The translations under genes were made by a program, and so were the position numbers. DNA of 20,000 bases. Source: an uncultured virus (IMG/VR IMGVR_UViG_3300037467_001416). Its lineage: Duplodnaviria; Heunggongvirae; Uroviricota; Caudoviricetes. The notes under the pieces are model-generated. The model saw nothing but the letters and a program-made list of their open reading frames with translations, was not told the DNA's origin and searched no databases. This document shows, in pieces, positions 4,703 to 19,621 of this stretch; positions within the stretch are counted from its first letter, which is position 1; each line of letters starts with the position of its first letter. The DNA is taken from the IMG/VR virus record IMGVR_UViG_3300037467_001416; one strand, written 5' to 3'.

Positions 4703-5566
4703 ATGGCCGAAGCAAAGAAGAAAGCTGAAGAAGAAAAGAGTGAGGCACCTGCGGCTGGCGGTACCAATCTCACAACGACCAAGAACGAGTCAACCGATTT
4801 GGTTGCGGCGGACGACGACTTCTTCGCAGAAGCCGGTGCGGGTCTGGACGATTTCCAGCAGTCCGACTTTCTCATCCCGTATGTCCGCATCCTGCAAGCG
4901 CTCTCGAAGGAGCTTCAGCGTGGTCACGCTAAGTTTCTTCCTAACGCCGGTCAGGGCATGTTCGTCAACTCTGCGACGCGGAAGCTCATCAACGGCGAGA
5001 CGGGTTTTCTCGCCGTTCCGGTCGGCTTTAGTCACCGATACATGGCGTGGCGACCGAATAACGCCGGTCCTGCCTACGACATGGGTGACGATCCCTCGAA
5101 GTTCAACGCGGCGACGCCGGACGACAAGGGTAAGCGCTACGACGAGCAGGGCAATGAGCTCACCGATGCTCTTCAGTACTTCGTCGTCCTGGTGAATCCG
5201 GAGACGCAGGAATGGGAGGCAGCGGTTCTGAACTTCTCTGGGGTTCAGGCTCGCAAGGGTCGCGGGTGGGCAACCACGATCAACAATCGCATGGAGCGAT
5301 TTCCGGTAGGCCACGCCAAGGCCGGGACTCTCTTCCGTCCTGCGATGTGGTTCTACTCGTACAAGATTACCACGATTCCAGAGTCCAACGACAAGGGTTC
5401 GTGGTACGGGTTCCTCATCGAGGAGGGGCCGAAGGTGAAGGATCTCGCAAACGGGCGCGAGATTTTCACTGCCGCCAGCGAGCTGCGTAAGCGGATCGAT
5501 GCCGGCGAAGTCAAGGGTGACATGGAGCATCCCGACGACGAGCCCGGAGACGAGCAGGCGTTCTAG
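4703..5566 (+). CDS. Putative single-stranded DNA-binding protein
   Basis: DFLIPYVRILQALS and SNDKGSWYG motifs; acidic C-terminal tail ending in Phe (PDDEPGDEQAF), as in SSB and T7 gp2.5. Confidence 0.7.
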   Translation: MAEAKKKAEEEKSEAPAAGGTNLTTTKNESTDLVAADDDFFAEAGAGLDDFQQSDFLIPYVRILQALSKELQRGHAKFLPNAGQGMFVNSATRKLINGETGFLAVPVGFSHRYMAWRPNNAGPAYDMGDDPSKFNAATPDDKGKRYDEQGNELTDALQYFVVLVNPETQEWEAAVLNFSGVQARKGRGWATTINNRMERFPVGHAKAGTLFRPAMWFYSYKITTIPESNDKGSWYGFLIEEGPKVKDLANGREIFTAASELRKRIDAGEVKGDMEHPDDEPGDEQAF

Positions 5567-5594
5567 TCCCTGCTAGAAGGAGCATCAAGAAGTC

Positions 5595-6242
5595 ATGTCT
5601 ACGAAATTGGATACCGAAAAGAAGCTGTGGGTCGGTCCCACGGCTGTCCGTGCAGGCACTGTCGTCGACGCGATGCGTCAGGCAGCGAACGAACTCGGCG
5701 GCGCTCCCGGCGGCGACGGCGTCAGCTACGCCGATCTGGAGAAGCATCTCCTCGAGAACTTCTCGCCGAAGAAGTCGCAGGGCTACGGACCCTCGTACAT
5801 CCGTGCCTATGTTCGCGACGCAGTTCAGCGCTACGGTCATCTGGTCAACGAGGCGGACAAGGCTGAGGAGTACAGCTCGATCGCGGCTCCGGAGCCGAAG
5901 GCCAAGGCCAGCAAGCCCAAGAAGCTGACCAAGGCTCAGCAGGCGGAGCTCGACGCGCTGAACTTCATCCGTGAGCGCGGGGAAGTCTCGGACGCCGGCG
6001 ACATCGACAACACGCAGATCACCGTCCAGGACTTCGTCACGGAGACCGGGAAGAAGACCAAGACGGTCGAGAAGCAGATCGACAAGCTCGAGAAGGACGG
6101 TCTCGTCCGCACCGAGTCGCGCGAGGACAGCATCTACGTCTTCCTGACGCAGGCTGGCTTCAGTCGTCTGCAGGAAGCGGAGTCGCAGGACACCGGTGAG
6201 CCGACCGCGGCGACCGGGAGCGACGGTGGCATGGTCGAGTAA
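5595..6242 (+). CDS. Putative DNA-binding protein with C-terminal winged helix-turn-helix
   Basis: ITVQDFVTETGKKTKTVEKQIDKLEKDGLVRT...IYVFLTQAG is MarR-like wHTH; Lys/Ala/Pro linker; AAGGAG SD; strongly C/G-ending codons. Confidence 0.7.
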   Translation: MSTKLDTEKKLWVGPTAVRAGTVVDAMRQAANELGGAPGGDGVSYADLEKHLLENFSPKKSQGYGPSYIRAYVRDAVQRYGHLVNEADKAEEYSSIAAPEPKAKASKPKKLTKAQQAELDALNFIRERGEVSDAGDIDNTQITVQDFVTETGKKTKTVEKQIDKLEKDGLVRTESREDSIYVFLTQAGFSRLQEAESQDTGEPTAATGSDGGMVE

Positions 6243-6266
6243 TACTCGACGCCTCTGTCCTTACAG

Positions 6267-6301
6267 AAGGGCGGGCGTCGTGAGGCGTCCGCCCTTTTCT
6301 T
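6267..6301 (+). terminator. Rho-independent terminator
   Basis: 13-bp stem AAGGGCGGGCGTC / GGCGTCCGCCCTT (with G-U pairs), GTGA tetraloop, followed by a T-rich tract. Confidence 0.8.
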
Positions 6302-6322
6302 CGTCCTCAGCGGAGAGCCGCC

Positions 6323-7216
6323 ATGAACCAAGAGATCTACGAGACTTTCGTTCACTACCTGAACGAGCGCGAAGCTATCCGGCAGAAGAGAGTTGCAGGT
6401 GAGCCAGGTCCCTGGACCACAGATCCAATTCTCTCGCGCTACAAGTTCACAAATATTCTCCGCAAGCACGATCGCACTACGCAGTGGCTGATCCGGAATT
6501 GGTATAATCCTAATCGTGGAAATGTTCCGAAACAAGTCATGGCACTCAACTGTGCCATCGCGCGTTACTTCGGCAGCATTGAGTTTCTAGAAGACGTTGG
6601 TTTTCAATACGAGTGGAACCCAGATTTTCTCATACGTCGCGCCGGCGAGCGTCTCGCTGCCGGGAAGAAAGTCTTCACCGGAGCGTACATCATAACGAAC
6701 GCGGGCAGCACAGATCCTAAGCAGATCGTCGTCGTGTCGCAGTTTCTCACTCCGTTTCGGATGCGTCTGGACTCTGTCATCGGCATGGCTGAGCGCACGA
6801 ATCGGTGGCAGGAGGTCTGTGAGCTCTTGCAGGGAATGCCCGGAATTGGTCCCTTCATGGCGAAGGAGATCGCACTGGACATGATGCTGACGCCTGTGCT
6901 CGAGAATGCTACCGACAAGCTGACGTGGTCACCGGCTGGCCCCGGAGCTATCCGCGGTCTCAATCGTCTTCACGATCGTCCGACGCAGGCCGGGATGCCT
7001 CAGCAGAGGGCTCAGCACAAGATGCAGGCTCTTCTCGGTCGTCTCAGCATGGATCGTGCGTTCAAGGACTACATGCCTGAGATTGGTGTTCACTACGGAG
7101 TCACCGATGTTCAGTTCTCTCTGTGCGAACTGGACAAGTATCTCCGTGTGAAGAATGGCGAGGGTCGTCCACGCTCCGGCTACGACTGGCGTAAGGCAAA
7201 GCCTATAGTCCCCTGA
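6323..7216 (+). CDS. 5-hydroxymethyluracil DNA kinase-like protein (aGPT-Pplase1 / HMUDK helical family)
   Basis: Signature NEREAIRQKR..G.PGPWTTDPILSRYKFTNILRKHDRTT; FTGAYII; HhH motif LQGMPGIGPFMAKEI; GPGAIRGLNRL; QFSLCELDKYLR. Confidence 0.82.
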   Translation: MNQEIYETFVHYLNEREAIRQKRVAGEPGPWTTDPILSRYKFTNILRKHDRTTQWLIRNWYNPNRGNVPKQVMALNCAIARYFGSIEFLEDVGFQYEWNPDFLIRRAGERLAAGKKVFTGAYIITNAGSTDPKQIVVVSQFLTPFRMRLDSVIGMAERTNRWQEVCELLQGMPGIGPFMAKEIALDMMLTPVLENATDKLTWSPAGPGAIRGLNRLHDRPTQAGMPQQRAQHKMQALLGRLSMDRAFKDYMPEIGVHYGVTDVQFSLCELDKYLRVKNGEGRPRSGYDWRKAKPIVP

Positions 7217-7258
7217 GAAACGGCTTGCTATAAGATAGCTACTCAGCAGGAGGCAGGT

Positions 7259-7549
7259 GTGAAGCTCAGATTAGGCCCCGGACAACGCGACATACATCTC
7301 GAGGGACGGGACGGGGAGCTTCTCGTCGGTAGAGACGAGAGTGGTAAATTCGTCAACAAACTTCATCTCACGGATGCCGAGTTCTCCATGGGAGCCTCGA
7401 GATTTCCCATTCTGCGCCTTGACGTGGAGATGATCGGCTACGAGATCGAGATAGACGCCATGGAGGAAGACGTTGTCGTAGTCCTTCACCGTCATGGCAT
7501 TACTCGCATAGAAGGAATTAAGAATGCAGATCTTCATCCCGACGCGTGA
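7259..7549 (+). CDS. Hypothetical protein (96 aa)
   Basis: AGGAGG SD before GTG; fills the gap in the modification cluster and overlaps the next start. Confidence 0.6.
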   Translation: MKLRLGPGQRDIHLEGRDGELLVGRDESGKFVNKLHLTDAEFSMGASRFPILRLDVEMIGYEIEIDAMEEDVVVVLHRHGITRIEGIKNADLHPDA

Positions 7550-8336
7550 TCGTGTCAACGCTCAATTTACATGGGACAACCTGACGCCGGCTCTGCGGCA
7601 ATGCACAACGCTGGTATGCCCCGCGGAGGAGGTCACCGAGCATCTCGAGCGCTCTCGAAACGCAGTGGCGCGGCCCCCGGTAGGGCTGGCTGCGGTGCGG
7701 CAATGGATTGTCGACGAGCTTGCTAGACAGGGTGAGCCGGTCATCATGCTAGACGACGATCTAGCGTTTTTCGTTCGCAAGGATCCATCCGCGCACAATC
7801 TACGTCCCGCCGGTGCCGACGTGGAGCGTATCTTTTCGAGACTTCATATTCTCGTGGCTCACAACGATTACGTCCATTCAGGATTATCGCCTAGGCAGGG
7901 AAATAATTGGGCGTATCCTGCTACGACGCTCACTGTGGAGCGCATGAACGCGGTCCACTGCGTCTTACCTGAGGCGCTGCGGCACTACGGCATTCGCTAC
8001 GACGACGTTGACATGATGGAGGACTACCATGTCGTTCTTTCGCTTTTTGAGAAAGGTGAGAAAAACGCCGTCATTACGGATGCCGCCTGGGATCAGTGCA
8101 AGGGATCAGGAGCTCCTGGAGGCTTCAGCCACTACCGAACTAGCGAGACTCAAGCGGCGGCGGCTGAGCGTCTTGCGGAGCTCCACCCGAAAGTCGTCAA
8201 AGTCGTAGAAAAGACACCCAAGACGGGCAGCGGCGGCTTTTCGGGAACACGCAAGGACGTGCGCGTCCAGTGGAAGAAAGCGTACCAAACCCGCGGTCGT
8301 GAGTTCATCAATCCTAGCTTCCGGAGGGGTGCGTGA
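7524..8336 (+). CDS. GT-A fold glycosyltransferase, TAGT / GREB1-like / J-glucosyltransferase family
   Basis: N-terminal IFIPTRDR, DxD motif IMLDDDL, catalytic-type MEDYHVVL, GAPGG, LAELHPKVV, DVRVQWKKAY. Confidence 0.8.
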   Translation: MQIFIPTRDRVNAQFTWDNLTPALRQCTTLVCPAEEVTEHLERSRNAVARPPVGLAAVRQWIVDELARQGEPVIMLDDDLAFFVRKDPSAHNLRPAGADVERIFSRLHILVAHNDYVHSGLSPRQGNNWAYPATTLTVERMNAVHCVLPEALRHYGIRYDDVDMMEDYHVVLSLFEKGEKNAVITDAAWDQCKGSGAPGGFSHYRTSETQAAAAERLAELHPKVVKVVEKTPKTGSGGFSGTRKDVRVQWKKAYQTRGREFINPSFRRGA

Positions 8337-8566
8337 GAGATAAGCAAGGTCGCAGGTACGCCCGTCTGGCTGAGATCAAGGCAGGCTCCTACATCCGCGT
8401 CGACGGAGACTTTGACTGCATGAAGAAAAACTCTCTGCGGAAGGTCTTTAGAGACCGCGAGGGGTATTACGTCGTGTGTTCTCGCGGTCGCCATCATCTG
8501 GACGGGCAGTCAGACGGACACGGTAATCTCATCGGCATGTATCAGGAAGAGACTGAGAATGTATAG
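8333..8566 (+). CDS. Hypothetical protein (77 aa)
   Basis: GTGA overlap upstream, GGAGG SD, overlap with the next gene. Confidence 0.65.
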   Translation: MRDKQGRRYARLAEIKAGSYIRVDGDFDCMKKNSLRKVFRDREGYYVVCSRGRHHLDGQSDGHGNLIGMYQEETENV

Positions 8567-9596
8567 CTTCGAGATAGACTGCCCCAACGAGGGCTTCGGT
8601 CGTGTGATGCAAGCTCTCAAGTCGGAGGGAATCAAGACCGACAGTCGTAACGGTCCTGTCATTCGGTTCCCGAAGCCGGTGTGTCTAGAGTACGTCAATC
8701 CTCGCAGGAGACTTCTCGACCATCCTGTGCGGGACGCGAATCACTTCTTCCATCTCTTCGAGACGATGTGGATGTTCGCCGGCCTAGACACCGTAGCGCC
8801 TCTGAATCTCTACAACAGCGGCATGAAGAATTACTCTGACGACGGAGTGACTTTCGCGGCTCCGTACGGCTTCCGTTGGCGCAGACACTTCCACTTCGAT
8901 CAACTCGCGAGAGTTGTGCAGAAACTACGAAGTAATCCAGAGGATCGTCGTATCGTTCTTCAGATCTGGGACTCCCAAGAGCTAGTGAAGGATCAGGGAC
9001 GTGACTTCGCCTGCAACCAGCAGGTCTTGTTCGACACCCGTCCGAGAGAGGGCGGCTATCTTCTTGACATGACGGTGACTAATCGCAGCAACGACCTCGT
9101 CTACGGAGCTATGGGTAGTAATCTCGTTCACTTCTCACTTCTGCATGAGTACATCGCCTATCACGCAGGTCTCGAGGTCGGCACCTACTACCAGATCTCC
9201 AAGAACATGCACCTCTACCTTGAGAACGAGACCTCCCAGCGCTGCTGGGAGCACATGGACGAGTTTAAGAACTTCGCCTCTCAGAAGGCAGACTACAGTC
9301 TAACGGAACACGGTCTCACTCTCGATATGAAGATTCTAGCAGAATTCGTCAACGGAGGCGAGATTCCCGTCGGTAAATTGAGTTCTTATCTCGGCCGCGT
9401 AGTGAGACCGATTTGCGAGGCTTACAGGATATACAAGCTGAAGAGTCTCACAGGCATAGATACTCCTATAGAAGTTCGCATAGATCTTGCCATGGAGATC
9501 TTGCGAACGTGTGAGTCAGAATCCTTGCGACTGGCCTGCGTGAACTGGTTGATGGATAAGCAGGTGAAGGCTCAGAGGAAAGCTCTCGCAAGATGA
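8559..9596 (+). CDS. Thymidylate synthase homolog, probably dUMP hydroxymethylase
   Basis: SRNG, RDANHFFHLFE, YGFRWR, DRRIVLQIWD, catalytic DFACN, NRSND..YG...N (Asn at the specificity position indicates dUMP), NMHLY. Confidence 0.88.
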   Translation: MYSFEIDCPNEGFGRVMQALKSEGIKTDSRNGPVIRFPKPVCLEYVNPRRRLLDHPVRDANHFFHLFETMWMFAGLDTVAPLNLYNSGMKNYSDDGVTFAAPYGFRWRRHFHFDQLARVVQKLRSNPEDRRIVLQIWDSQELVKDQGRDFACNQQVLFDTRPREGGYLLDMTVTNRSNDLVYGAMGSNLVHFSLLHEYIAYHAGLEVGTYYQISKNMHLYLENETSQRCWEHMDEFKNFASQKADYSLTEHGLTLDMKILAEFVNGGEIPVGKLSSYLGRVVRPICEAYRIYKLKSLTGIDTPIEVRIDLAMEILRTCESESLRLACVNWLMDKQVKAQRKALAR

Positions 9597-17594: not shown

Positions 17595-17626
17595 CACTTG
17601 TCAACATGGCTCGGAGCTGCTAAGTG
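17595..17626 (+). promoter_or_regulatory. Putative promoter (CACTTGTCAAC repeat copy)
   Basis: TTGTCA-17 nt-TAAGTG, preceded by GC; the 11-mer is repeated exactly at 18515. Confidence 0.55.
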
Positions 17627-17627
17627 A

Positions 17628-17740
17628 GAACTTCGCCAGACGGGCAGACCCGTGAGCAGCGCGCCGACGTAACATTCCGGCCCCTGCGTCCGAGTTCCGT
17701 AGACGAGATTCCTCACAATTAATCTCAATGGAGATAGACT
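17628..17740 (+). promoter_or_regulatory. Structured 5' leader with alternative SD-sequestering hairpin
   Basis: Stems ACGGG/CCCGT, GCAG/CTGC, GCCG/CGGC, GAACT/AGTTC. AATCTC (17721-26) can pair with GAGATT (17705-10) or with the SD-overlapping GAGAT (17731-35). Confidence 0.4.
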
Positions 17741-18256
17741 ATGCCTGTCATCGCGAAGATGCAGTTGAATGGTGTCTTGAACTTCGGCTCTGGGAGTGTG
17801 AGTAAGTTGTCCTGCGTGTGCGAGAACGATCTCATGGCGGCTTACGCCAAGGCCGACGAAGATAAACTTTTCACACGCTACAGTCCGTGGGGTGAGATGA
17901 AGTTAGGACACAGCCTTCGCTCGTTCAAAGACGGGCAGAAGTTCTACGTCGTAGCACTCAAGTCTAAGTCCAGACCCAAGTGTGAGAAAGCAGCACACGT
18001 CCATCCTGCGCGTGTCCACGTCGTAGAAGACTATGGTTCGAGCAAACAAGTTCAGCTGAGCTACGACGGCTACAATAAGAACGCCTACACATCAGTTGAC
18101 TACGAGCATCCCGGTGAGCTACACTGGCGCATGACGATAGATAATCCTCCTGCTGTGGAATTCTTCACTCCCGGAGAAAACGACTATTGGGTTGCTTTCT
18201 ATCCTGACGACAAGTTCACGCAGCACGAAGCTTTGGTGGATGCACACAGCGACTAA
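17741..18256 (+). CDS. Hypothetical protein with two tandem copies of a small beta-rich domain
   Basis: GGAG SD. First half AKM..FGS..KLS..FTRYSPWGEMKL..FKDGQKFYV parallels second half ARV..YGS..QLS..PGELHWRMTIDNPPAVEFFTPGENDYWV. Confidence 0.75.
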   Translation: MPVIAKMQLNGVLNFGSGSVSKLSCVCENDLMAAYAKADEDKLFTRYSPWGEMKLGHSLRSFKDGQKFYVVALKSKSRPKCEKAAHVHPARVHVVEDYGSSKQVQLSYDGYNKNAYTSVDYEHPGELHWRMTIDNPPAVEFFTPGENDYWVAFYPDDKFTQHEALVDAHSD

Positions 18257-18298
18257 TCTTCGCTTGCACCGGGAGCTAGGCCGTGGCACCTAGCAGCT

Positions 18299-18500
18299 AG
18301 GCGGCGCTGGCAGACCGCGCGACAAGCCTCCACTCTAGGGTGGAAACTACAGTAGTCTGCTTCCTATTCTCTTCCCGAGGCTAGTCTAAGGTCCGCGAGG
18401 CTTATGACTGCTGAGGGAGACGCGAGGGTATCACCGTCCCGTCGGTGACTGAGGCGCAGCGGGAATTGCGCTCTGGCGACGTAGAGTTCGTTACCCTCGC
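18299..18500 (+). ncRNA. Candidate highly structured non-coding RNA (family not recognised)
   Basis: No ORF in the track for 18257-18577; pseudoknot, 11-nt tetraloop receptor, tandem GA pairs, GNRA loop, 9-bp closed four-way junction with complementary loops (details in findings). Confidence 0.62.
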
Positions 18501-18514
18501 TTTCCCCAATTCTC

Positions 18515-18546
18515 CACTTGTCAACTGAGCTGTGCTGAGCTAGAGC
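18515..18546 (+). promoter_or_regulatory. Putative promoter (CACTTGTCAAC repeat copy)
   Basis: TTGTCA-17 nt-TAGAGC, preceded by GC; upstream of the exonuclease and terminase genes. Confidence 0.5.
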
Positions 18547-18585
18547 TCTCTGGTCTAGACTGAGTTAGACTAGAAAGTTGGCACC

Positions 18586-19155
18586 ATGCTTGCGTGTCTC
18601 TTCGACACCGAGACCACCGGAATCTACGATTATCGCGCTCCGGCAGGAGCCGAGCATCAGCCCGACGTTGTTCAGCTATGCGCCATGCTCTGCGACGAAG
18701 AGCGTGTCTACAGTGCCATCAACGTCTTCGTACACTCCGACATCGAGATCCCCGACGCGGCCTACGAGGTTCATCGCATCGACCGCGCTATGACTGCTCG
18801 CGTAGGCATCAGTCGCATCCGCGCCTGCCAGCTTTTGGATAGCTTCGCCGGTAAGGCCGACATTCTGGTCGGTCACAACATTGACTTCGACGTCAACATG
18901 ATGATGACGGCGACGCTTCGTGAAGGCGGTAGGGGAGCCAATCTCAAGAAGCCGCGCTTCTGCACGATGAAGGAGGCCGTACCGCTCTGCAAGCTGCCGA
19001 ATCCAAAGCGACCGGGAACTTACAAATGGCCCTCTCTTCAAGAGGCCTACCAGATCTTGGTAGACTCGAAGGGTTTCTCTGGAGCGCACGACGCAATGGC
19101 CGACGCAAGGGCTACCTATGAACTCTATCGCGTTCTCCGCAGCAACGCTAACTGA
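18586..19155 (+). CDS. DEDDh 3'-5' exonuclease (DnaQ/epsilon-like)
   Basis: FDTETTG, VGHNIDFD, FCTM, KWPSLQE, AHDAMADA. Confidence 0.93.
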   Translation: MLACLFDTETTGIYDYRAPAGAEHQPDVVQLCAMLCDEERVYSAINVFVHSDIEIPDAAYEVHRIDRAMTARVGISRIRACQLLDSFAGKADILVGHNIDFDVNMMMTATLREGGRGANLKKPRFCTMKEAVPLCKLPNPKRPGTYKWPSLQEAYQILVDSKGFSGAHDAMADARATYELYRVLRSNAN

Positions 19156-19621
19156 CGAGCAGGCGCTTGAACTAGCGCAGGCTTACGTCAAGGGTGACAA
19201 GGATCCTCTGAGAATTGCGCGAATTCTCGGCGTCGACAGCTTTGACCTTAACGCGATCATGCATCCTCTGACGCGAGGTCACATTGTGCGTCTGCACAGG
19301 GCTACGTCTGCTGAGCATTCTCTAGCCGATCACATGGCTTTTCTGAAGAAGATTCGTAACGCAGCCTTTGACGACGACAACTTCAAGGTTGCTCTCGCCG
19401 CTGAGACTCAGCTCGGTAAGGCGGCGGGTCACTATGATCCGAAGCCAGCGGGCGATGACTCAGATCCCACCAAGCAGCTCGACCCTACGAAACTGACTTC
19501 AGACGAGCTTCGTAGGCGACTAGCCTCTACGATTGGAGCCGTTATCCCCGCTCCGAAACAGGAGGCACTTCCCGGCTCCGTGGAGGCTCAGGAAGCTGAA
19601 GATCGCGATGGTGAGATCTAG
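19118..19621 (+). CDS. Putative terminase small subunit
   Basis: Directly upstream of the large terminase; ALAAETQLGKAAGHY and LTSDELRRRL patterns are typical of TerS. Confidence 0.65.
   Translation: MNSIAFSAATLTDEQALELAQAYVKGDKDPLRIARILGVDSFDLNAIMHPLTRGHIVRLHRATSAEHSLADHMAFLKKIRNAAFDDDNFKVALAAETQLGKAAGHYDPKPAGDDSDPTKQLDPTKLTSDELRRRLASTIGAVIPAPKQEALPGSVEAQEAEDRDGEI

What the first reader, a model, noticed from the sequence alone, without database searches (positions are those of the whole stretch)
18299..18500. Candidate ~200-nt multi-domain structured ncRNA with several tertiary-structure signatures
Seen in the sequence, in three domains. (a) AGGC 18299-302 pairs with GCCT 18326-29 and GCGC 18304-07 with GCGC 18317-20; the enclosed loop GGCAGAC 18309-15 pairs with GTCTGCT 18355-61 to form a pseudoknot, with a CCAC/GTGG hairpin inserted. 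(b) Hairpin 18372-18419 has tandem GA/GA pairs (CCC-GA-GGC / GCT-GA-GGG), TCTAAG 18385-90 opposite TATGA 18403-07, and a GCGA tetraloop. (c) A perfect 9-bp stem GCGAGGGTA 18422-30 / TACCCTCGC 18492-500 encloses three hairpins. Established: CUAAG/UAUG is the 11-nt GAAA-tetraloop receptor of group I introns, RNase P and c-di-GMP-I riboswitches. Inference: so many motifs in a gene-dense genome suggest a functional phage RNA (ribozyme, RNP scaffold, oligomer or anti-defence decoy). It may have its own promoter (TTGCAC 18264-17 nt-CACCTA). I do not recognise it as a known family.
Basis: partly seen in the sequence, partly recalled or inferred. Interest (0 to 1): 0.85.

Follow-up and report, generated by a model that had tools for sequence, protein, structure and literature searches.

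The report
Conserved structured RNA in soil phage
A roughly 240-base non-coding stretch between two genes of an uncultured soil phage folds into a multi-part RNA whose helices are kept by paired mutations in one other phage lineage, so it is probably a real RNA of a new family with unknown function.

Summary
Folding energy alone does not support them: 18299-18500 gives z=+0.39 and the whole 329-nt gap gives z=-0.82. Comparison does. A covariance model built from the window alone finds the hairpin plus four-way junction (18372-18500) full-length in three IMG/VR contigs of one related lineage. There, 96.6% of pair cells stay paired and 14 of 42 pairs changed on both sides; slid controls give 40-50% paired.

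The 5' domain (18262-18361) is conserved mainly in sequence. Its long-range/pseudoknot helix has one compensatory change, and a rival fold has one too.

The "tertiary signatures" do not hold up. The CUAAG/UAUG receptor, the GCGA loop and the tandem G-A pairs are absent in the relative. Receptor-like motifs occur in 79% of shuffled windows.

There is no Rfam match, no tRNA, no terminator and no supported promoter of its own. The element lies 6 nt after a stop codon and just upstream of a recurrent TTGTCA-type promoter. Two sister lineages lack it, so it is accessory.

Verdict: a real structured RNA of a new family known from only two lineages. Its function is unknown and no expression data exist.

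The parts
17598..17626 (+). Upstream promoter-like box (-35 TTGTCA 17598-603, 17-nt spacer, -10 TAAGTG 17621-26). It probably drives ORF 17741-18256 and, by read-through, the RNA.
   Evidence: The box (A/G)CTTGTCAAC plus a TA-starting hexamer 17 nt later recurs on the + strand of the phage record at window coordinates -12503, -735, 17597 and 18517. Sequence read. Function is inferred.
17741..18256 (+). 171-aa ORF ending 6 nt before the conserved RNA block. No family assigned; it is not linked to the RNA in relatives.
   Evidence: No Pfam or PHROG hit. 68 homologues found. The AlphaFold model (pLDDT 82.6) resembles Rpb8/RpoG. The ORF is absent from the L002 and L005 records.
18262..18298 (+). 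5' conserved block. Its sequence is conserved but its fold is ambiguous. It can pair with 18299-18327 in an alternative fold.
   Evidence: blastn gives 80-81% identity to L001-L003 from 18262 on (alignment A5). The alternative fold is 85.5% paired, with one double change at 18272/18315.
18299..18329 (+). Domain a hairpin (AGGC/GCCU outer stem, GCGC/GCGC inner stem, loop containing GGCAGAC).
   Evidence: The sequence is nearly invariant in L001-L003, so it says little about structure. The outer stem is 100% paired and never varies. The inner stem is 83% paired.
18309..18361 (+). Long-range or pseudoknot helix, GGCAGAC 18309-15 with GUCUGCU 18355-61.
   Evidence: One compensatory change: 18315/18355 is C-G in the window and G-C in L001-L003. 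90.5% of cells are paired. RNAalifold on L001/L003 predicts the equivalent helix, and it appears in the window centroid.
18330..18343 (+). Small hairpin CCACU/GGUGG. In L001-L003 it is enlarged to 31 nt.
   Evidence: CCAC/GUGG in the window becomes CCGG/CCGG in L003, with 2 pairs changed on both sides. In L001 it reads CCCG/CGGG.
18362..18371 (+). C/U-rich linker. In L001-L003, about 250 nt of extra helices are inserted here, closed by AAGAGAG/CUCUCUU.
   Evidence: Alignments A1 and A5. RNAalifold of L001/L003.
18372..18419 (+). Domain b: an irregular hairpin. The basal 13 pairs are conserved. The distal part, with the receptor-like motif and GCGA loop, is specific to the window.
   Evidence: Model R1 alignment. 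Helix 1 has 17 pairs, 3 of them changed on both sides, and 95.3% of cells are paired. The 4 distal pairs have letters only in the window. z=-2.29.
18422..18500 (+). Domain c: a four-way junction. Closing stem 18422-30/18492-500; H1 18431-36/18443-48 (loop UCCCGU); H2 18454-58/18467-71 (loop GCGGGAAU); H3 18476-80/18486-91.
   Evidence: Pairs changed on both sides: closing stem 4 of 9, H1 4 of 6, H2 3 of 5, H3 0 of 5. An independent minimum-energy fold of L001 gives the same architecture, z=-2.95. The loop cores UCCCG and GGGA are identical in both lineages.
18518..18546 (+). Promoter-like box of the exonuclease-terminase operon (-35 TTGTCA 18518-23, -10 TAGAGC 18541-46). It marks the 3' limit of the RNA element.
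   Evidence: The box is conserved upstream of the exonuclease gene in L002, L005 and L080, including the lineages without the RNA. It also recurs elsewhere in the phage record.
18554..18577 (+). Conserved TAGACT-N4-(T)AGACT element or hairpin in the exonuclease 5' leader. It is not part of the RNA element.
   Evidence: Conserved in L002 and L005. Predicted as a hairpin.
18586..19155 (+). DnaQ/RNase_T-type 3'-5' exonuclease gene downstream. It was used as the anchor to fetch relatives.
   Evidence: Pfam RNase_T 1.4e-14. PHROG 192. Relatives.

Best explanation
The stretch 18262-18500 encodes an accessory, modular, structured non-coding RNA of a family not yet described. It is read from the + strand, like all neighbouring genes.

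Shown:
- It has a sequence-conserved 5' domain with a long-range or pseudoknot helix.
- It has a slot that takes expansion helices: 0 nt in the window and about 250 nt in the relative.
- It has an irregular hairpin and a four-way junction closed by a 9-bp stem. These helices are kept by compensatory mutations in a second phage lineage.
- The element occupies a variable slot between the replication genes and the conserved promoter of the exonuclease-terminase operon. Sister lineages lack it.

Inferred:
- It has no promoter or terminator of its own. It is therefore made as the 3' part of the transcript that starts at the TTGTCA promoter at 17598 and runs through the 171-aa ORF.
- The GC-rich junction at its 3' end would block 3'-to-5' decay, so the folded RNA would accumulate.
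- It would then act in trans as a folded RNA that binds a host or phage factor, as a decoy, sponge or scaffold. That would give an optional advantage rather than an essential function.
For: Structure conservation:
- Model R1, built from the window only, hits L001, L002 and L003 full-length (43.5, 43.5 and 42.2 bits; E about 3e-6 to 5e-6). It hits nothing else in 408,676 bases of 67 sources.
- On that alignment 96.6% of 116 cells are paired and 14 of 42 pairs changed on both sides. 0 of 500 shuffles reach this. Slid controls give 39.8-50.0% paired and 0-4 double changes.
- A separate minimum-energy fold of L001 gives the same hairpin plus three-hairpin junction, z=-3.43, with 0 of 200 shuffles as good.

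Strand:
- 9 pair cells are G-U, which would be A-C on the other strand.
- + strand energies are lower than - strand energies: -56.6 vs -49.4 and -54.1 vs -43.2 kcal/mol.

Non-coding: no ORF is shared between the two lineages.

Accessory:
- L080 (exonuclease 72% identical) has only an 80-nt gap with the promoter box.
- The L005 lineage has a 142-aa ORF plus a terminator in the slot instead.
- R1 finds nothing in L004-L066 or L077-L156.

Modular: the L001/L003 insert is closed by its own helix. L001 and L003 differ from each other by pair-preserving changes and by a clean 58-nt deletion.

Co-transcription: there is no sigma-70-type promoter or terminator in the gap. Recurrent TTGTCA promoters lie at 17598 and 18518.
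Against: - Only two lineages carry the element (3 distinct rows). The covariation therefore rests on essentially one divergence event, and the alignment was fitted to the model.
- Folding energy of the full element is no better than shuffles.
- There is no expression evidence. No RNA run holds the sequence, so transcript ends, stability and trans action are all inferred.
- Domain a has two mutually exclusive folds, each with one compensatory change at the same base, 18315.
- Nothing identifies a binding partner.
- The upstream ORFs differ between the lineages, so there is no conserved protein neighbour to hint at a function.
Confidence: 0.45

Rival explanations
1. Cis-acting mRNA element. On this reading it is a 3'-end stabiliser, a processing site or an insulator. 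It would protect the upstream transcript from 3' exonucleases or direct RNase cutting between the two operons, and would have no function as a free RNA.
For: The element starts 6 nt after a stop codon and ends 17 nt before the next promoter's -35 box. It has no promoter of its own. A GC-rich 9-bp stem lies at the 3' end, followed by UUU. Domain b looks like an irregular double-stranded processing hairpin.
Against: A 240-nt element (about 500 nt in L001) with a long-range helix, an expansion slot and a four-way junction is far more elaborate than known stabilisers. Sister lineages manage the same gene junction without it. The upstream genes it would serve differ between the two lineages. There is no terminator-like U tract.
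Confidence: 0.2
2. Cis-regulatory leader or conformational switch. Read-through transcripts would carry the RNA in front of the exonuclease-terminase operon. Alternative folds of the 5' domain would tune read-through, processing or translation, in the manner of a riboswitch or an antitermination RNA.
For: Base 18315 covaries both with 18272 (alternative fold) and with 18355 (pseudoknot). This is what two competing conformers would show. The element keeps its place next to the exonuclease promoter in both lineages, while the upstream genes differ.
Against: A conserved promoter lies between the RNA and the gene, and it works without the RNA in L005 and L080. No terminator or Shine-Dalgarno-sequestering platform follows the element. 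No Rfam riboswitch or leader model matches at E<=10. Each alternative fold rests on a single substitution, and in L001 that substitution merely creates self-complementary GCGC words.
Confidence: 0.12
3. A single-stranded DNA structure rather than an RNA. On this reading it is a signal for replication priming, recombination or packaging, formed by the + strand.
For: Covariation cannot distinguish RNA from DNA hairpins. The element sits at the end of the replication module and two genes before the large terminase gene.
Against: It is absent in sister lineages, so it cannot be an essential origin or packaging site. In the L002 record, which has direct terminal repeats, it lies about 34 kb from the ends. 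G-T pairs and multi-branched junctions are weak in DNA.
Confidence: 0.06
4. No function. On this reading the helices are chance GC-rich pairings in a junk spacer that two lineages inherited.
For: Whole-element folding energy is not better than shuffles. Only two lineages are known.
Against: 14 of 42 pairs changed on both sides while staying paired, and only 4 of 116 cells are unpaired. Slid controls give 40-50% paired. Sequence identity in b and c is low, while the flanks are 81-87% identical. That pattern is the opposite of neutral decay.
Confidence: 0.07

Closest known systems
ROOL and GOLLD, the large 'ornate' RNAs of phages and prophages (Rfam families; cryo-EM in PMC12286853, where I read the passages found by a term search)
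   Same: Both are phage-encoded, intergenic and accessory. Both have many helices, pseudoknot-type long-range pairs and a part of variable length. [quoted passage not shown] Function is unknown in both cases.
   Different: No Rfam model matches the window or the L001 element. This RNA is 240-500 nt, against roughly 580-800 nt or more. ROOL and GOLLD often lie near tRNA islands, but this phage record has no tRNA gene. There is no evidence here for self-assembly.
phi29 packaging RNA (pRNA). Its properties are recalled, not taken from a call.
   Same: Both are structured phage RNAs of 100-200 nt encoded near packaging genes. In both, two hairpin loops are complementary to each other over 4 nt (here UCCC and GGGA).
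   Different: No Rfam hit. The phage type differs: this one has a large terminase, and its relative's record ends in direct terminal repeats. The RNA is absent from sister lineages, so it cannot be an essential motor part. The loops do not vary, so the pairing is untested.
The 11-nt GAAA-tetraloop receptor, as in group I introns, RNase P and c-di-GMP-I riboswitches (motif definition recalled)
   Same: The window has UCUAAG 18385-90 opposite UAUGA 18403-07. This is the receptor consensus with the outer C-G pair replaced by U-A.
   Different: The motif is not kept in L001-L003. The predicted folds contain no GAAA hairpin loop. Such a motif is expected by chance in 79% of shuffled windows. None of the host families matches in Rfam.
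tRNA and tRNA-like cloverleaves
   Same: Domain c is a 79-nt cloverleaf-shaped junction: a closing stem plus three hairpins.
   Different: ARAGORN finds nothing at default settings. At an 80% threshold it reports a 96-nt 'tRNA-Val' that uses different pairings, but at that setting it 'tRNAs' in the 73-kb record, so this is noise. It finds nothing at the homologous place in L001. The stem lengths (9, 6, 5 and 5 bp) and the spacers do not fit a tRNA. The Rfam tRNA model does not match at E<=10.

Membership tests
Any Rfam 15 family (4227 models) | Covariance-model score at or above the family's gathering threshold | tested here: not met
   Window: 0 hits at gathering threshold. 18200-18620: 0 hits at E<=10. 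L001 2380-3020: 4 hits, all with E>=0.31 and 15-61 bits below gathering.
11-nt GAAA-tetraloop receptor | CCUAAG / UAUGG internal loop within a helix | tested here: met
   UCUAAG 18385-90 / UAUGA 18403-07, with flanking pairs.
11-nt GAAA-tetraloop receptor | Motif retained in homologous RNAs | tested here: not met
   L001-L003 have UCUAG / CAUGA closing a 13-nt loop. The second A of the platform and the G-U pair are lost.
11-nt GAAA-tetraloop receptor | A cognate GAAA tetraloop elsewhere in the RNA | tested here: not met
   The predicted folds have no GAAA hairpin loop. The only GNRA loop is GCGA, which sits on the same hairpin.
11-nt GAAA-tetraloop receptor | Occurrence above chance | tested here: not met
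   2 in the window against a mean of 1.6 in 200 dinucleotide shuffles; 79% of shuffles have at least one.
tRNA / tmRNA | Cloverleaf with canonical arm lengths and T-loop/D-loop features, detected by ARAGORN | tested here: not met
   0 genes in the window and 0 in the whole record. The relaxed-threshold call is noise: 68 calls in 73 kb.
Intrinsic terminator | GC-rich hairpin followed by a U tract | tested here: not met
   0 terminator-like sites in 17600-18700. None falls in the gap in the whole-window scan.
Independent gene with a sigma-70 promoter | -35 and -10 hexamers at 16-18 nt spacing upstream of the RNA | tested here: inconclusive
   No consensus match in the gap. TTGCAC-17-CACCTA is sequence-conserved in L001 and L003, but it lacks the T at -10 position 6 and differs from the phage's TTGTCA/TA.... 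promoters.
ROOL / GOLLD ornate phage RNAs | Match to the family model; neighbourhood of tRNA islands | tested here: not met
   No Rfam hit. No tRNA in the record.
phi29-type pRNA | Match to the family model; presence in all members of the phage group because it is essential for packaging | tested here: not met
   No Rfam hit. The element is absent from the L005 and L080 lineages.
phi29-type pRNA | Intermolecular loop-loop pairing that builds a ring | not testable with these tools
   Loops UCCC(G) and GGGA are complementary and identical in both lineages. With no variation there is no covariation test. In the L001 minimum-energy fold part of the H1 loop is paired.
Riboswitch / cis-regulatory leader | An expression platform (terminator or RBS-sequestering helix) directly downstream of the aptamer | tested here: not met
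   A conserved promoter box follows the element, not a platform. There is no terminator.

The most novel reading that the evidence does not exclude
This could be a new class of compact 'ornate' phage RNA that works through RNA-only higher-order structure. The invariant complementary loops UCCC (H1) and GGGA (H2) of the four-way junction would pair between molecules rather than within one. That would build a dimer, ring or cage, as in ROOL, GOLLD or pRNA. The expansion slot would carry lineage-specific cargo or binding helices, and the assembly would sequester a host factor or defence component during infection.
Probability: 0.08. Interest if true: 0.8.

Novelty: new variant of a known kind. 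Interest (0 to 1): 0.5.

Why it matters
Phage genomes are gene-dense, so a 240-500-nt non-coding element kept by compensatory mutation is probably doing something. Very few phage-encoded structured RNAs have a known role. This one is a clean candidate for a new family. It is modular, with an expansion slot. It is accessory, which fits host-interaction or anti-defence cargo. It comes from an uncultured soil phage group that also carries a thymidine-hypermodification gene set. The case also shows that recognisable tertiary-motif look-alikes in a single sequence were not what held up. The plain helices did.

Tried and rejected
- Expression. No RNA holder was listed among the 11 runs that hold the sequence; all are DNA contigs from soil or rhizosphere. 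Laying 4 of them gave only one variant inside the RNA (18481 G>A, in the H3 loop, run X11) and showed the L001-type form in the same samples.
- More homologues.
  - Phage GenBank collection, blastn: no match.
  - Phage GenBank collection, tblastn with the exonuclease: 138 records, all below 60% identity.
  - IMG/VR pattern scans returned only the contigs already fetched, plus 4 chance matches to the 17-mer.
  - One search used a pattern that I mis-specified by one base. It returned 2 chance hits.
  - The metagenome scan with the exonuclease kept 80 of 225 loci. R1 matched none of them.
Most were an unrelated palindromic repeat of Allosphingosinicella MAGs. The best R1 score was 17.7 bits, E 0.059, away from the pattern position.
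  - Relatives of a virus record cannot be drawn.
- The ORF171 route. IMG/VR gave one 47%-identical homologue, L285, with no RNA next to it.
- tRNA-like reading: rejected.
- Small-protein reading: rejected.
- Second copy. There is none in the phage record. The record-level search also missed the known L001-L003 copies, so that negative is weak. A filter-free search of the L001 gap found no second copy.
- TAGACT and GGCAGAC words are not enriched in the record.
- The protein atlas was unreachable.
- Earlier findings of this scan: nothing on this genome or sequence.

Full report
Setting. The window is the replication and nucleotide-modification module of an uncultured phage. The source is an IMG/VR record of 73,472 bases, and the window is its bases 15900-35899 on the minus strand. 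All genes lie on the + strand:
- SNF2 helicase
- Pam3 gp34-like protein
- 5-hmdU DNA kinase
- TET-associated glycosyltransferase
- thymidylate-synthase-like protein
- family A DNA polymerase
- dUTPase
- 5'-3' exonuclease
- Dda-like helicase
- DprA-like protein

After these come a 171-aa ORF (17741-18256), the 329-nt gap holding the finding (18257-18585), a DnaQ/RNase_T-type exonuclease (18586-19155), a 167-aa ORF, and the start of the large terminase. DNA runs that hold the stretch come from soil and rhizosphere metagenomes. No isolated phage is close: blastn finds nothing, and the exonuclease is under 60% identical to all 138 matching records.

Check of the observation. Every helix and motif is at the stated coordinates, and ViennaRNA reproduces domains b and c as drawn. 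Folding energy does not single the region out:

| Stretch | z-score |
|---|---|
| 18299-18500, + strand | +0.39 (129 of 200 shuffles as good) |
| 18257-18585, + strand | -0.82 |
| 18257-18585, - strand | -1.20 |
| domain a alone | +0.82 |
| domains b+c | -1.98 |
| domain b | -2.29 |
| domain c | -2.13 |

There is no Rfam match at gathering threshold in the window or at E<=10 in 18200-18620. There is no tRNA or tmRNA.

Relatives. I used the exonuclease as an anchor. IMG/VR gave 66 loci, of which six are close: L001-L003 at 89% and L004-L006 at 87% amino-acid identity. The metagenome collection added L079 and L080 at 72%. blastn of the gap against the first 66 loci matched only its two ends, and only in L001-L003: 18262-18331 at 80-81% and 18516-18577 at 87%. 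The gap in L001/L002 is about 590 nt long. The L005 lineage instead has a 142-aa Gly/Ser-rich ORF with a canonical terminator. L080 has the DprA-like gene followed by only 80 nt. All of them keep the same box, CTTGTCA-17 nt-TA...., in front of the exonuclease gene.

Domains b and c are conserved as structure. I built a covariance model (R1) from the window sequence 18372-18500 alone, using the predicted structure.
- In 408,676 bases of 67 sources it found, besides the window itself, only L001, L002 and L003. Each hit was full-length at 2795-2913, with 43.5, 43.5 and 42.2 bits and E about 3e-6 to 5e-6.
- It found nothing in L077-L156.
- On the resulting alignment (3 distinct rows) 96.6% of 116 pair cells are standard pairs. 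14 of 42 pairs changed on both sides while staying paired. None of 500 shuffles reaches this.
- Sliding the 3' partners by 1-3 columns gives 39.8-50.0% paired and 0-4 double changes.
- Double changes by helix: closing stem 4 of 9, H1 4 of 6, H2 3 of 5, domain b 3 of 17, H3 0 of 5.

The alignment was fitted to the model, which favours it. Two independent checks agree, however. An unguided MAFFT/RNAalifold run already showed 6 compensatory pairs. A separate minimum-energy fold of L001 2795-2913 gives the same hairpin plus three-hairpin junction, with z=-3.43 and 0 of 200 shuffles as good.

The + strand is the folded one. Nine pair cells are G-U, and + strand energies are lower than - strand energies in both lineages. 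No ORF is shared across the region.

The limitation is plain. The family has only two lineages, so the counts reflect essentially one divergence.

What is not conserved. In L001-L003 the distal part of hairpin b is missing. That part is 18389-18403, with the G-U pair, the bulge and the GCGA loop. It is replaced by a 13-nt loop, so the receptor-like CUAAG/UAUG becomes CUAG.../...CAUG. The tandem G-A/G-A internal loop becomes G-U and U-A pairs, giving a continuous helix. No GAAA hairpin loop exists in the predicted folds. A CTAAG...TATG pair with flanking base pairs occurs twice in the window, against a mean of 1.6 in 200 shuffled windows, and 79% of shuffles have at least one. The tertiary signatures that motivated the high first-stage score therefore carry no weight. 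What is invariant in both lineages is GUCUA and AUGAC in hairpin b, the H1 loop core UCCCG and the H2 loop core GGGA. UCCC and GGGA are complementary. Because they do not vary, a loop-loop contact cannot be tested. In the L001 minimum-energy fold part of the H1 loop is paired.

Domain a. The block 18262-18360 is homologous to L001 2423-2540, and mostly at the sequence level. A second model (R2) aligned it. Three of 20 pairs changed on both sides, but 46 of 500 shuffles do as well. The three changes are:
- 18315/18355, which is C-G in the window and G-C in L001-L003, in the GGCAGAC/GUCUGC helix.
- Two pairs in the small hairpin, which reads CCAC/GUGG in the window, CCGG/CCGG in L003 and CCCG/CGGG in L001. 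The hairpin is enlarged from 14 to 31 nt in the relatives.

RNAalifold on L001/L003 predicts the equivalent long-range helix. A rival fold pairs 18262-98 with 18299-18327. It is 85.5% paired and has its own double change at 18272/18315. The same base therefore covaries with two partners. This may mean alternative conformers. It may also be a by-product of the self-complementary GCGC words that the L001 substitutions create. I cannot decide between these with two lineages.

Modularity. Between the pseudoknot strand and the C/U-rich linker, L001 carries about 250 nt that the window lacks. RNAalifold closes this insert with AAGAGAG/CUCUCUU and fills it with helices. L001 and L003 differ there by pair-preserving changes and by a clean 58-nt deletion of one arm. 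The whole L001 gap folds with z=-2.23. An expansion slot of this kind is typical of structured RNAs.

Transcription context. The box (A/G)CTTGTCAAC, followed 17 nt after TTGTCA by a hexamer that starts with TA, recurs on the + strand of the record at window coordinates -12503, -735, 17597 and 18517 (sequence). It precedes the exonuclease gene in every relative. I read it as the phage's promoter type. One copy (17598-17626) precedes the 171-aa ORF, and one (18518-18546) follows the RNA. A sigma-70 consensus scan finds no promoter or terminator in the gap. The simplest reading is that the RNA is the 3' part of the transcript from 17598. This is inference, because no RNA run holds the sequence.

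What it is not.
- It is not a tRNA-like gene. ARAGORN finds nothing at default settings, and its relaxed setting 'tRNAs' in 73 kb.
- It is not a genome end. In the L002 record, which has direct terminal repeats, the element lies about 34 kb from the ends.
- It is not tied to the upstream protein. The 171-aa ORF has 68 homologues but is absent from the L002 and L005 records. A 47%-identical homologue in another phage has no such RNA beside it.
- It is not repeated in the record. That search also missed the known L001-L003 copies, so it is a weak negative.

Interpretation. The evidence shows an accessory, modular, structured RNA of an undescribed family. The mechanism is inferred. My best guess (0.45) is a stable, 3'-UTR-borne RNA that acts in trans by binding a host or phage factor. 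The rival readings and their weights are:
- a purely cis 3'-end stabiliser or processing site: 0.2
- a switch-like leader for the exonuclease-terminase operon: 0.12
- a single-stranded DNA signal: 0.06
- no function: 0.07

The closest known things are the ornate phage RNAs ROOL and GOLLD (PMC12286853, passages read), which are also phage-borne, accessory and of unknown function. Short natural RNAs have also been reported to form cages and filaments (bioRxiv 10.64898/2026.07.01.735769, abstract only). This RNA matches none of their models.

Novelty and score. The element is a new family of a known kind of thing. Two searches of the paper library turned up nothing that describes it, but they were aimed at analogues and not at this sequence. 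The claim that it is not a known family therefore rests on Rfam 15 and on this scan's own index. Interest is moderate. The structure is real and the accessory context is suggestive. Against that, only two lineages are known, there is no expression evidence and no functional lead, and the features that made it look exceptional did not survive comparison.

Noticed in passing
window 17598-17626 and 18518-18546; also phage-record positions equivalent to window -12503 and -735: There is a recurrent promoter-like box, (A/G)CTTGTCAAC, with a TA-starting hexamer 17 nt after TTGTCA. It is conserved upstream of the exonuclease gene in L002, L005 and L080. The standard sigma-70 scan misses it because its -10 hexamer lacks the final T.
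   Followed up: partly
window 17741-18256: This is a 171-aa ORF of no known family with 68 metagenomic homologues and an invariant CVCEND-like motif. The AlphaFold model made with the alignment has pLDDT 82.6. Its best PDB matches are RNA polymerase subunit Rpb8 / archaeal RpoG (Foldseek E 2e-4, TM 0.59-0.69 by target length). It may be an OB-like nucleic-acid-binding barrel.
   Followed up: partly
window 4703-9596: A gene set typical of thymidine hypermodification lies here: Pam3 gp34-like protein, 5-hmdU DNA kinase, TET-associated glycosyltransferase and a thymidylate-synthase-like enzyme. An HD phosphohydrolase and a dUTPase are nearby.
   Followed up: no
window 18554-18577; L002 about 2966-2988; L005 about 2967-2988: A conserved TAGACT-N4-(T)AGACT direct repeat, or imperfect hairpin, sits in the 5' leader of the exonuclease gene, just after the promoter box. 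It may be an operator or a leader hairpin. The word TAGACT is not enriched in the record overall (21 on the + strand, 14 on the - strand).
   Followed up: partly
L005 2389-2817 (the L004-L006 lineage, also L077 and L078): In this lineage the slot that holds the RNA in the window is filled by a 142-aa Gly/Ser/Ala-rich ORF with a signal-peptide-like start. A canonical GC-hairpin/T-run terminator follows it. The slot therefore behaves like a moron insertion site.
   Followed up: no
L168-L243 (many loci), e.g. L192 about 330-450: A multi-copy palindromic repeat of about 90 nt (CGTCATCCCGGCGAAAGCCGGGA...TCCCGGCTTTCGCCGGGATGACG) is scattered through Allosphingosinicella MAGs. It surfaced only because it happens to match my search pattern. 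It is unrelated to the phage RNA.
   Followed up: partly
window 17640-17652: The 5' leader of the 171-aa ORF contains a small hairpin, ACGGG-CAGA-CCCGU, that carries the same 7-mer GGCAGAC as the pseudoknot loop at 18309-15. The 7-mer occurs 7 times on the + strand of the record, so this may be coincidence.
   Followed up: partly
window 18481 and 18193: One DNA run (X11) carries a near-identical contig with only two differences across 17700-19200. One is G>A at 18481, in the loop of hairpin H3. The other is T>C at 18193, in the upstream ORF. The L001-type phage occurs in the same samples as the window's phage.
   Followed up: no
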